A DNA stretch of 64,000 nucleotides, from NCBI RefSeq assembly GCF_000026545.1, contig NC_011601.1. One strand, given 5' to 3'. The position numbers were made by a program. Each line of letters starts with the position of its first letter. Within the stretch, counting starts at the first letter, position 1. Source of the stretch: Escherichia coli O127:H6 str. E2348/69. Lineage in GTDB: Bacteria; Pseudomonadota; Gammaproteobacteria; Enterobacterales; Enterobacteriaceae. Positions 54,001 through 57,000 of the stretch are shown here, piece after piece.

Positions 54001-57000
54001 CCATGTGGCGTCAGATGGTGGAGGGATAATGACAACTCAGCACACAACTGAACGGATGATTCAGGAATATGTCCCTGGTAAGCAGGTCACGCTGGCACAT
54101 GTCATCGCCAATCCCGGGAAGGATCTGTTTAAGAAATTGGGTTTACCAGACACCGTTTCTGCTATTGGCATTCTGACGATTACCCCCAGCGAAGCATCTA
54201 TCATCGCATGCGATATCGCCACAAAATCAGGCGCTGTAGAGATCGGTTTTCTTGATCGTTTTACCGGTGCCGTAGTGCTGACTGGTGATGTTTCTGCCAT
54301 TGAATATGCACTTAGCCAGGTTACCCGTACGCTGGGTGAAATGATGCGCTTTACCGCCTGCCCCATTACGCGGACCTGACGTTATGCAACGTATGATGCT
54401 TATCGGCCCCAGCCAGTGCGGAAAAACGTCACTCACGCAATGTCTGCGTGGCGAAAATATTCATTATCAGAAAACGCAGGCTATCGTCTGGTCCCCGGCC
54501 ACCATTGATACACCAGGCGAATACCTCGAAAACCGCAGCCTTTACAGTGCATTGTTGGTCAGTGCCTGCGAAGCAGACATTATCGCGCTGGTACTTAATG
54601 CGGACGCACCGTGGTCACCTTTTTCGCCAGGCTTTACCTCGTCAATGAATCGCCCGGTCATTGGAGTAGTAACCAAAGCAGATTTAGCCAGTATGGAACA
54701 AATATCTTTGGTGAAATGTTGGTTACGGGAAGCTGGAGCGCACAACGTGTTAGTAACCAGTGCGGTTAATAACAATGGAGTTACAGAACTTTTTGCCTTG
54801 CTGCATACAGAAGAAGGCTGTCGCTAATTTCGATAGGTTCTCAGATGAGAATGATGACGGTGATACACAGATAAGAATCAATGAGCAATGAGGGTTGCCG
54901 GGCAACCCTCATTGAATAAAACAGGAATTACTTCGCTTCGCCGTTTTTCATTTCGCCCATAGCTTTCAGCTTTTTGGAGATATCGCGGCGTTCTTTGGAG
55001 AGCTCGGCATTTTTGATGATGTAATCGTCAACGCGATCTTCATAGTCACCTTTCATGCTGGCGATGATGCCCTGGATTGCTTCAACGCTCATTCCTGGCT
55101 TGATGTAATCGCTCAGGTTGTCCAGCAACAGGACGCGCTTCTGGTTGTCACGGATCTTTTTCTCAACGTCCTGAATTTCACGTTGCAGTTTGTTCTTACG
55201 ACGGAACAGACGAACAAATTCCAGTACGTCCTGGAATGAAGGCTTGGTAGTTTCCATTTTTATACCCCTGATAATGTGAGAGTCGGATTCGTTTAAGCAA
55301 CCGCTATTCGTTAGGGCCAACATTACTCATAGCTGCCGCAGATGACAATGCTTTTATCCCTTTTCACTATCATACCCTTTATCCTTGCTGAATCGAAGCA
55401 GCAGCAAGATGATTCTGAAGTTCAGGAATTATTTGCGCAAGGCCCGGCAAATCAGATTCGATAGCAACTCAAGCTGATGTGCCGTTTCCATGTTCAGCCA
55501 CACATAACCATAGATTGGTGTTTCTACGACTTTCAGGTCATGGTGGTTATCGAGCAACTGACGCAACTCTTCCACAGCATCGTTCAATTTTTCCGTATTG
55601 GCAAAAACCGGCTGCGGATTACCTTCGTACAGCGCATGAACAAGGCTCAGCAGTATTTGCTGCATCATGTGCTGGGTATCACGAAGTTTTTGCGCGTTCA
55701 ATAACACGAAATGGCTGGGGCGCGTGGCCCAGTATGCATTGATTTGCAACTCCAGCATACAAACCAGATTGCGATTAATGGTCTGGATACCTTCATATAT
55801 CGATTTTGGAATACGGGTTTCTTTGCTGGCGGGCGCAATCAGCCCACGCATTTTCACGGCATCGGTCAGGAGTTTTTGTAGATGGCTTTCCAGACGCGGG
55901 CGTTCGAGTAAGTTCGGTGAGAATGCAGATTGATAGACCCGATTATACTCGGTCAGACTTTTTGCCAGTTGAATGCGCCAGTGGATGAACGCTCGTTGTG
56001 GCCAGATACCGGTAAACAACATTGCCAGTAAAGAGCCGAGGATCACATCGCCGCTTCGCCATAACGCCGTATCAATTTCACCTGTCGGGGAACCCACAAC
56101 AATTGCCAGCGTCACCCCAATCAATAAACCTTGATACGGTTTCTTGCCCAGCGCCAGCCAACCGCAAAGAAACATAGCCGCCGCGCACCAGACTAACATC
56201 AGCGGTAACGAGATTAACTCCAGTTGCAGAGCGATAAGACCTAAAATCGAGCCCAACACCGTACCGCCAATACGTTCGAAGGCACGAGGGACAACGTTAC
56301 CCCAGAACGAGATTGGCCCCATAATCACAACCATGGTGACCAGCGGCCAGGTGCTTTCCGGGATAGTAAACAGGCGGATAATGAGAAAAGTGAGCAGGAA
56401 TGCCAGCGCGACCCGAGTACCATGCACAATGCGGTAATGGCGGTATACCCGGATTTCAAACGGGCTTAATGACTTATCGGCACGCACGCAGAAACTCCGT
56501 AATGAAGATTAAAAGCGCTCATAACACATCTGTCGGCCAGAAGGCGCGCCTCTGAGTTATCCGACGGACATACCGGGAACAGTGTAATTTCCCGGCAGGA
56601 GCGAAAAATTTGAAAGGCGCATCTTACTCTTTTCGCTTTCAAAAAAAGAGTGGTCTTCGCGTTAACACACCGCCCTGAGATGAATTAGTGATGTTTTGGC
56701 TGCACCGCAACATACATTTCGATATCCTAGTACCCATCTTCCGCGCCATTGTTCAAGTAAACCTCGAAGCAGGGCTTTGGTAACATTTCATAAGCACTGT
56801 CCTGCAAGAGGCTATTAAAGAACTGATACCAGGGTTTAGCAAAATCATCACCGACTACACGAGCCACCGCCACCGCATACTGACCACCTGAAATTTCTGT
56901 CAGAATGACGCCCTCACTGTTGTCGGGGAGCGTAAAGTTATTCGGTACCGTCACGACGGTGTCGCAGCGTAATTTTTCGGCGGGTGTTTCATCTGGATTG

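What the first reader, a model, noticed from the sequence alone, without database searches (positions are those of the whole stretch)
56685..56729. sbmC ends at an in-frame amber codon 14 codons before the conserved stop
The frame reads ...[28 protein letters not shown]-12 SbmC as I remember it ends ...YWDIEMYVAVQPKHH, so a TGG (Trp) appears to have become TAG. The product would be 143 instead of 157 aa.
Basis: partly seen in the sequence, partly recalled or inferred. Interest (0 to 1): 0.45.

Follow-up and report, generated by a model that had tools for sequence, protein, structure and literature searches.

The report
Strain-specific nonsense mutation truncating sbmC
The gene for the DNA-gyrase-protecting protein SbmC in this strain, the reference enteropathogenic E. 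coli E2348/69, carries a real single-base change that stops translation 14 residues early; this is an ordinary strain-specific defect that probably cripples a dispensable gene.

Summary
sbmC lies on the minus strand at 57158..56727. Codon 144 is TAG (56729..56727), and the frame continues DIEMYVAVQPKHH-TAA, with the TAA at 56687..56685.

The cause is one transition, TGG>TAG (C>T at plus-strand 56728), relative to K-12 MG1655 and two near relatives.

The window is identical to EPEC O127:H6 strain E2348/69. A 61-base probe across the TAG matches exactly in only 3 of 5417 complete E. coli genomes, all E2348/69 or a construct derived from it. The 143-aa product is already deposited (WP_001105371.1, CAS09699.1) and recurs in at least 85 data blocks, so it is not a sequencing error.

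The lost segment is not a loose tail. YWDIEM is invariant in 23 full-length orthologues. In a model superposing on crystal structure 1JYH (TM 0.97), residues 143-154 form the last strand of the eight-strand GyrI-like fold. The Pfam match falls from 1-154 to 1-140 of 155 positions.

The LexA box and ribosome-binding site are intact. No classical amber suppressor tRNA (supD, supE, supF, supP type) was found in the strain.

The most likely result is a destabilised, hypomorphic or null SbmC. Partial function is possible because both gyrase-binding peptides are kept. It is ordinary and of low interest.

The parts
56727..57158 (-). Truncated sbmC (gyrI) coding sequence: 143 codons plus the premature TAG stop.
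   Evidence: ORF list and translation. PGAP annotates it as CDS 'DNA gyrase inhibitor SbmC', WP_001105371.1, in three E2348/69 records. NCBIfam NF007451 equivalog scores 272.9 bits against a cut-off of 179, covering profile positions 1-143 of 157.
56727..56729 (-). Premature amber codon at codon 144, TGG(Trp)>TAG. The mutated base is 56728 (T on the plus strand; C in relatives).
   Evidence: Alignment with K-12, FDAARGOS_536 and 2022H047. An exact 61-base match occurs in only 3 of 5417 complete genomes.
56685..56726 (-). Orphaned 3' end of the ancestral reading frame: 13 codons (DIEMYVAVQPKHH) plus the ancestral TAA stop. It is now untranslated and carries no further changes.
   Evidence: Read-through translation. 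This stretch is 100% identical to K-12 and FDAARGOS_536, which points to a recent mutation.
57173..57192 (-). LexA (SOS) box TACTGTATATAAAAACAGTA upstream of sbmC. It is intact and identical to K-12.
   Evidence: Read from the sequence and compared with K-12. There are 3 differences in the 118-base upstream region and none lies in the box. SOS control of sbmC is taken from the literature (PMC10886550).
57163..57167 (-). Ribosome-binding site GGAGG, 4 bases upstream of the ATG.
   Evidence: Read from the sequence. It is the same in K-12.
57229..57258 (-). Sigma-70-like promoter match (CTGGCA, 18-base spacer, CATAAT) in the dacD-sbmC spacer. This is a consensus match only.
   Evidence: One search found 2 matches in the region against 1.1 expected from shuffles, so this is not significant on its own. 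The stretch is identical to K-12.

Best explanation
This is a genuine, recent point mutation: a G>A transition on the coding strand that changes TGG to TAG at codon 144. It lies on the branch leading to EPEC O127:H6 strain E2348/69, in the chromosomal SOS-regulated gene sbmC (gyrI).

Shown:
- Transcription and translation signals are intact, so the gene should still be expressed and induced by DNA damage.
- The amber codon lies in frame after Tyr143, so a 143-residue product is expected.
- Residues 144-157 are missing. They include the invariant WDIEM motif and the whole final beta-strand (143-154) of the second half of the eight-strand GyrI-like fold.

Inferred:
- Translation ends at the amber codon through release factor 1 (established knowledge, not tested here).
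- Losing a conserved, ordered strand of the sheet destabilises the second subdomain. The protein is then poorly folded or degraded, and its activity is lost or much reduced. That activity is binding gyrase and shielding it from microcin B17, CcdB and partly quinolones.
- sbmC is dispensable, so the allele is tolerated. It is best seen as an early-stage pseudogene or hypomorph that annotation pipelines do not flag, because 91% of the length remains.
For: Reality of the mutation:
- Searches show the mutation directly.
- The flanking DNA is identical over 3.6 to 50 kb to three complete E2348/69 assemblies.
- The exact 143-aa protein is held under CAS09699.1, SLM07110.1, SNU21075.1 and WP_001105371.1, on 54 contigs in 85 data blocks. 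Further contigs are identical over 13-17 kb.

Derived and rare:
- 3 of 5417 complete genomes carry it.
- W144 is present in all 23 full-length orthologues aligned from Escherichia, Citrobacter, Salmonella, Kluyvera and Lelliottia.

Structural importance of the lost segment:
- The AlphaFold model of the repaired full-length sequence has pLDDT 93.6 and a strand at 143-154. It superposes on crystal structure 1JYH with TM 0.97 and rmsd 0.8 A.
- The Pfam GyrI-like match shrinks from model positions 1-154 to 1-140 of 155.
- In the related Cass2 structure the fold is an eight-strand antiparallel sheet built of two beta-beta-alpha-beta-beta halves (PMC3048380).
- A model of the truncated protein drops to pLDDT 74.5 and pTM 0.70, with residues 123-143 below 50. 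This is weak supporting evidence.

Recent event: the 42 bases after the TAG are unchanged.

Expression signals intact: the LexA box and ribosome-binding site are identical to K-12.

No rescue by classical suppressors.

Disruption of sbmC is seen elsewhere:
- A frameshifted allele exists (P0023).
- A 121-aa form ends at contig ends at the same codon in several assemblies.
Against: - No experiment on a C-terminally truncated SbmC could be found or read; Nakanishi 2002 and Chatterji 2002 are not held. Loss of function is therefore inferred.
- Both segments reported to bind gyrase, residues 33-48 and 89-96, are retained. The isolated 8-residue peptide alone inhibits gyrase in vitro (PMC10886550; PMC6722960). 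Some activity could survive even in a poorly folded protein.
- AlphaFold confidence is not a measure of stability.
- One paper describes the SbmC termini as solvent-exposed and flexible (PMC1919500). In the model this applies only to about the last three residues.
- I could not establish whether wild O127:H6 isolates other than E2348/69 carry the allele.
Confidence: 0.7

Rival explanations
1. The truncated 143-aa SbmC is stable enough to keep much of its function, because the gyrase-contacting elements lie upstream of the stop. On this reading the allele is a nearly neutral length variant, not a knock-out.
For: - Residues 33-48 and 89-96 are present, the latter as ISGGQYAV in this strain.
- The 8-residue peptide alone inhibits gyrase with an IC50 of about 12 uM (PMC10886550; PMC6722960).
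- Position 90 varies freely among orthologues.
- The truncated protein still scores far above the NCBIfam equivalog cut-off.
- The first subdomain keeps high model confidence in the truncated model.
Against: - The deleted WDIEM strand is invariant in all 23 full-length orthologues aligned, all of which are 154-157 aa. This argues that selection maintains it.
- It is an ordered 12-residue strand of the sheet in the model that matches 1JYH.
- The truncated model loses confidence over residues 101-143.
Confidence: 0.25
2. The amber codon is read through, either by a suppressor tRNA carried by the strain or by context-dependent read-through, so that useful amounts of full-length SbmC are still made.
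For: - The downstream 13 codons and the TAA are perfectly preserved.
- A second in-frame TAG lies in the same window, at codon 25 of mobQ.
Against: Suppressor tests:
- supF type: tRNA-Tyr(CUA) matches exactly in 0 of 5441 records.
- supD type: the only exact match is DSM 498.
- supP type: no full-length exact match.
- supE type: exact matches appear in K-12 laboratory strains, which serves as a positive control. The E2348/69 locus has a single tRNA-Gln(CUG) with a wild-type anticodon.
- The window itself holds only three tRNA-Asn genes.

Other points:
- Preservation of the tail is equally expected for a recent mutation.
- The nearby pduC nonsense codon is TAA, not TAG, so the window shows no amber-specific pattern.
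- Basal read-through of UAG in E. coli is low (general knowledge, not measured here).
Confidence: 0.02
3. The TAG is a sequencing or assembly error in the source record.
For: None was found. It is only the default worry for any single-base nonsense change.
Against: The same base is present in many records made at different times and with different technologies:
- CP059840.2, LT827011.1 and LT903847.1.
- The 2008 Sanger record, through CAS09699.1.
- Draft GCA_000442065.2, ENA ERZ773354 and SRR1554980.
- 85 data blocks in all.
Confidence: 0.01

Closest known systems
E. coli K-12 SbmC / GyrI (b2009, NP_416513.1; crystal structure PDB 1JYH)
   Same: - Same locus, dacD-sbmC-yeeA.
- Same LexA box and ribosome-binding site.
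- Over the 143 shared residues there are only 6 substitutions relative to K-12: E9D, V37I, G73N, Y74N, E79D and T90S.
- Same Pfam and NCBIfam families.
   Different: It ends at residue 143 instead of 157. It lacks W144-H157, that is, the last beta-strand with the invariant WDIEM motif.
Full-length sbmC of near relatives (e.g. strain FDAARGOS_536, WP_001105376.1; strain 2022H047, WP_001105372.1)
   Same: The coding sequence differs from FDAARGOS_536 at only two bases. One is the nonsense change and the other gives E79D. The neighbouring genes are the same.
   Different: These relatives have TGG at codon 144 and encode 157 aa.
Other disrupted sbmC alleles in public E. coli data (P0023, a frameshifted 167-aa form; P0106, a 121-aa form that ends where contigs break)
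   Same: They show that sbmC is sporadically inactivated in natural E. coli, which fits a dispensable gene.
   Different: They are different lesions at different positions in other lineages. P0106 may reflect an insertion or repeat rather than a point mutation; this was not resolved.
Other GyrI-like small-molecule-binding domains (Cass2, the C-terminal domains of Rob and BmrR, STM3175/YgiV)
   Same: Same duplicated beta-alpha-beta-beta fold. Foldseek matches the full-length model with probability 1.0. The fold is described in PMC3048380 and PMC5684135.
   Different: These are distant paralogues (11-22% identity) with complete domains. They matter here only in showing that the terminal strand is a constant part of the fold.

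Membership tests
SbmC/GyrI orthologue group (NCBIfam NF007451, equivalog) | Whole-protein score above the curated cut-off of the equivalog model. | tested here: met
   272.9 bits against a cut-off of 179, aligned to profile positions 1-143 of 157. The repaired full-length sequence scores 301.5 bits.
SbmC/GyrI orthologue group (NCBIfam NF007451, equivalog) | Conserved chromosomal position between dacD and yeeA. | tested here: met
   The gene order sbcB / dacD / sbmC / yeeA / tmaR is the same as in K-12.
SbmC/GyrI orthologue group (NCBIfam NF007451, equivalog) | SOS regulation through a LexA box upstream. | tested here: met
   TACTGTATATAAAAACAGTA lies at 57173-57192 and is identical to K-12. 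Only the sequence was tested, not regulation.
SbmC/GyrI orthologue group (NCBIfam NF007451, equivalog) | Gyrase-binding segments 33-48 and 89-96 (ITGGQYAV in K-12). | tested here: met
   Both are present. Residues 89-96 read ISGGQYAV; T90S falls at a position that varies among orthologues. Binding itself was not tested.
SbmC/GyrI orthologue group (NCBIfam NF007451, equivalog) | Full length of 154-157 aa, ending in the conserved YWDIEMY(V/I)(A/P)V strand. | tested here: not met
   The product ends at Y143. All 23 full-length orthologues aligned carry the strand.
SbmC/GyrI orthologue group (NCBIfam NF007451, equivalog) | Protects cells from microcin B17 or CcdB and inhibits gyrase supercoiling. 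| not testable with these tools
   This needs a wet-lab assay. No paper linking sbmC and E2348/69 was found.
[quoted passage not shown] | Complete domain made of two beta-alpha-beta-beta halves forming an eight-strand sheet. | tested here: not met
The strand at 143-154 in the 1JYH-like model is absent.
Pseudogene (disabled gene) | A premature stop that is derived relative to orthologues and removes a conserved element. | tested here: met
   TGG is found in 5414 other complete genomes and in other genera. The lost strand is invariant.
Pseudogene (disabled gene) | Demonstrated loss of function, or further decay such as extra disabling mutations or loss of expression signals. | tested here: not met
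   No other lesion was found. The tail, LexA box and ribosome-binding site are intact. PGAP does not flag the gene as a pseudogene. Loss of function is untested.

The most novel reading that the evidence does not exclude
The truncation is not neutral decay but changes the biology of the strain. Two versions are possible:
- A stable SbmC(1-143), with its second subdomain opened and the 89-96 gyrase-binding strand exposed, acts as an altered and perhaps stronger gyrase modulator during the SOS response.
- Loss of SbmC was selected in the EPEC O127:H6 lineage, for instance by changing how gyrase poisons and SOS induction feed into prophage and virulence-gene expression.

Either version would make the reference EPEC strain atypical in DNA-damage and quinolone experiments.
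Probability: 0.06. Interest if true: 0.4.

Novelty: already known. Interest (0 to 1): 0.12.

Why it matters
The practical value is small. E2348/69 is the prototype EPEC strain used in many laboratories, and its sbmC is annotated everywhere as an ordinary 'DNA gyrase inhibitor SbmC'. Nothing in the annotation says that it lacks the last conserved beta-strand.

Anyone using this strain to study microcin B17, CcdB, quinolone or mitomycin C responses, or the SOS regulon, should treat it as a probable natural sbmC hypomorph or null.

It also illustrates a general gap in annotation. Nonsense mutations that leave about 90% of a protein escape pseudogene flags. In the same window PGAP flags pduC, which has lost only 20 codons, but not sbmC.

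No new biology or open question depends on this finding.

Tried and rejected
1. Sequencing error. Rejected: the same base appears in all independent records.

2. 'K-12 also ends here'. Rejected by b2009 and 1JYH.

3. Amber suppression.
- Suppressor versions of tyrT, glnV, serU and leuX were built and searched against all complete E. coli genomes. None was found in E2348/69.
- The strain's glnX/glnV locus was located. An ARAGORN scan shows one tRNA-Gln(CUG) and two tRNA-Gln(UUG).
- Suppressors derived from tyrU or trpT were not tested.

4. An amber-specific pattern in the window. The pduC premature stop is TAA. mobQ codon 25 is TAG. Two ambers with no suppressor is treated as coincidence.

5. 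Dating the mutation within the lineage.
- No other complete genome is closer than 99.4% over 22 kb.
- Contigs from GCA_000442065.2, ERZ773354 and SRR1554980 are identical over 13-17 kb, so they cannot be told apart from re-sequenced E2348/69.
- A paper search for the ASZR accession found nothing.

6. Literature on this allele or on C-terminal truncations of GyrI.
- No paper holds both 'sbmC' and 'E2348'.
- Nakanishi 2002, Chatterji 2002 and the E2348/69 genome paper (Iguchi 2009) are not held.
- A further search for E2348/69 pseudogene lists found nothing useful.

7. The promoter and terminator scan of the locus gave only chance-level matches.

Full report
**1. The observation**

The minus-strand ORF at 56727..57158 encodes 143 residues ending ...NNGAEDGY and stops at TAG (56729..56727). 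Translating through the stop gives DIEMYVAVQPKHH and then TAA at 56687..56685.

**2. Identity of the gene and of the window**

The 651 bases around the gene match 'sbmC: DNA gyrase inhibitor SbmC' in 5418 complete E. coli genomes. They are 100% identical only to three records, all from the E2348/69 lineage:
- CP059840.2: strain E2348/69, stool, Taunton, UK.
- LT827011.1: 'EPEC E2348/69 variety 2'.
- LT903847.1: a construct derived from variety 2.

Larger comparisons give no mismatch over 3651 bases, 22 kb and 50 kb. The window is therefore a piece of the chromosome of the prototype enteropathogenic E. coli O127:H6 strain E2348/69. Window coordinate w corresponds to position 2018719 - w of CP059840.2.

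**3. The mutation**

K-12 MG1655 sbmC (b2009) is 474 bases. The crystallised K-12 protein 1JYH is 157 aa and ends ...YWDIEMYVAVQPKHH.

- Aligning the 3' ends shows a single difference from K-12 and from strain FDAARGOS_536 at this codon, TGG versus TAG.
- Codon by codon, the E2348/69 gene differs from FDAARGOS_536 at two bases only, E79D and W144*.
- Against strain 2022H047 the gene itself shows only the change at window 56728, T here and C there.
- The event is therefore one GC>AT transition.
- The 42 bases after the TAG are unchanged, and the 118-base upstream region has three differences from K-12. None lies in the LexA box TACTGTATATAAAAACAGTA (57173-57192) or the GGAGG ribosome-binding site.
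- Nothing else in the gene is damaged, which points to a recent event.

**4. Is it real, and how common is it?**

A 61-base probe centred on the codon is found in 5416 complete genomes at 80% coverage or more. It is an exact match in only 3, the E2348/69 records; the others listed differ by one base.

The exact 143-aa protein is already in public databases as CAS09699.1, SLM07110.1, SNU21075.1 and WP_001105371.1, and was seen on 54 contigs. The contig index lists it in 85 data blocks, including draft assembly GCA_000442065.2, ENA assembly ERZ773354 and run SRR1554980. Their flanks are identical to the window over 13-17 kb.

A sequencing error is therefore excluded.

I could not tell whether any of these samples is an independent wild isolate rather than re-sequenced E2348/69. 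In this region the nearest other complete genome is only 99.4% identical. The mutation can therefore only be placed somewhere on the branch leading to E2348/69.

**5. What is lost**

Conservation:
- In an alignment of 23 full-length orthologues of 154-157 aa, the motif Y-W-D-I-E-M is invariant. By the sources' names the set includes Citrobacter, Salmonella and Kluyvera.
- None of these orthologues ends early.

Domain coverage:
- It covers only 1-140 in the truncated one.

Structure:
- It superposes on 1JYH with TM 0.97 and rmsd 0.8 A.
- The amber codon therefore removes the whole last strand, one of the three longest.
- In the related Cass2 structure this fold is an eight-strand antiparallel sheet with pseudo two-fold symmetry built from two beta-beta-alpha-beta-beta halves (PMC3048380).
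- The description of SbmC termini as 'solvent-exposed and flexible' (PMC1919500) fits only the last few residues. The 1JYH entry matched in the fold search has 155 residues.
- A model of the 143-aa protein made from the same alignment falls to pLDDT 74.5 and pTM 0.70. Residues 123-143 are below 50, and the second helix region drops to the 60s.
- AlphaFold confidence is not a stability measure, so I count this only as consistent with the inference.

**6. What is kept**

Two peptides are reported to bind gyrase: residues 33-48 and 89-96 (ITGGQYAV in K-12). The second inhibits supercoiling on its own (PMC10886550; PMC6722960). Both lie upstream of the stop. In this strain the second reads ISGGQYAV, and position 90 varies among orthologues. 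This is the main reason to keep a 'partly functional' rival alive.

**7. Mechanism**

Shown:
- A single-base nonsense change.
- Intact expression signals.
- Deletion of a conserved, ordered terminal strand.
- None of the four classical amber-suppressor tRNA types in the strain.

Inferred:
- Release factor 1 terminates at UAG after Tyr143.
- The second subdomain cannot close its sheet, and the product is unstable or misfolded.
- Protection of gyrase against microcin B17, CcdB and partly quinolones or alkylating agents is lost or reduced. These functions are taken from PMC10886550 and PMC6722960.
- Because sbmC is dispensable, the allele persists.

My estimates are about 0.98 that the mutation is real and specific to this strain lineage, and about 0.7 that it is a null or strong hypomorph.

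**8. The read-through rival**

A second in-frame TAG turned up in the window (mobQ codon 25), so I tested for suppressors. I changed the anticodons of K-12 tyrT, glnV, serU and leuX to CTA and searched all complete E. coli genomes.

| Suppressor type | Result |
|---|---|
| supF (tRNA-Tyr) | No exact match in 5441 records |
| supE (tRNA-Gln) | 155 exact matches; all 40 listed are K-12 or laboratory-type strains (a working positive control) |
| supD (tRNA-Ser) | One exact match, DSM 498 |
| supP (tRNA-Leu) | No full-length exact match |

The E2348/69 glnX/glnV locus was located. It has a single tRNA-Gln(CUG) and two tRNA-Gln(UUG). The window itself has only three tRNA-Asn genes. Suppressors derived from tyrU or trpT were not tested. 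Read-through is unlikely.

**9. Comparison with what is known, and novelty**

This is sbmC/gyrI by locus, by regulation signals and by the NCBIfam equivalog model (272.9 bits against a cut-off of 179). That also explains why PGAP names it normally and does not flag a pseudogene. It fails the full-length and complete-domain criteria.

Other damaged sbmC alleles exist in public data. One is frameshifted (P0023). Another is a 121-aa form that ends at contig ends at the same codon in several assemblies.

The sequence and the 143-aa protein have been public since the first E2348/69 genome record. No paper in the searchable library mentions sbmC together with E2348, so the truncation may not have been remarked on. 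It remains an ordinary strain-specific nonsense allele of a well-known gene.

**10. Verdict**

Interest is low (0.12). The only practical message is a caution for people who use E2348/69 in experiments with gyrase poisons or the SOS response.

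Noticed in passing
window 41408-43009 (+): pduC (propanediol dehydratase large subunit) has a premature TAA at 43007-43009. 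This is CAA>TAA, C>T at 43007 relative to strain 2022H047. It falls 20 codons before the normal stop, and the frame continues GERWEEIKNIPGALDPNEID. PGAP flags pduC as a pseudogene in CP059840.2, although it does not flag sbmC.
   Followed up: partly
window 16132-17601 (-), TAG at 17529..17527: A MobQ-family relaxase gene sits in an integrated element that also carries pilV, a type 4 pilin gene and traD. It has an in-frame TAG at codon 25, where 117 of 118 homologues have Tyr in the motif AAYHARTR. From memory of MobA of R1162, this is probably the catalytic tyrosine. PGAP marks the gene 'internal stop'.
   Followed up: partly
protein P0135 (Logan contig, 2639 bases): A public protein 100% identical to the mobQ translation has Gln at position 25. 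The gene caller for that data set apparently translated the TAG as Gln, using a recoded genetic-code model. This is an annotation artefact.
   Followed up: no
window ~23933-25403 and 26000-29000 (from the CP059840.2 annotation): An island next to a tRNA-Asn gene carries one intact integrase, two integrase fragments (frameshifted, internal stop), and a HEPN-domain / DUF262 gene pair. This information comes from the annotation only.
   Followed up: no
L011-L014 (other E. coli assemblies), sbmC codon 121: A 121-aa 'partial' SbmC (P0106, 117 member sequences) ends exactly at a contig end in at least four independent assemblies, one of them a 385-kb contig. This suggests a repeat or insertion sequence inside sbmC in another lineage.
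   Followed up: partly
proteins P0023 and P0016-P0018, P0020: P0023 is a frameshifted sbmC allele of 167 aa, with a new tail after ...EVYL. P0016-P0018 and P0020 are 223-aa gene calls with a 66-residue N-terminal extension, presumably wrong start calls.
   Followed up: no
window 57173 (L015 position 15174): Strain 2022H047 has C where E2348/69 and K-12 have T at the outermost base of the sbmC LexA box, giving ...CAGTG instead of ...CAGTA on the coding strand.
   Followed up: no
window 56727-57158 (-), codons 73-74 and 90: The E2348/69 allele reads N73-N74 and S90 where K-12 has G-Y and T. S90 lies inside the published gyrase-inhibiting 8-residue peptide, ITGGQYAV in K-12. Near relatives share these residues, so they are lineage polymorphisms.
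   Followed up: partly
L021 20157-20750 (LT827011.1 618156-618749): E2348/69 has one tRNA-Gln(CUG) gene at the glnX/glnV locus where K-12 has two. The operon has six tRNA genes instead of seven.
   Followed up: no
search results: One of the roughly 5400 matches to the sbmC region lies on a record classed as a plasmid rather than a chromosome. It was not examined.
   Followed up: no
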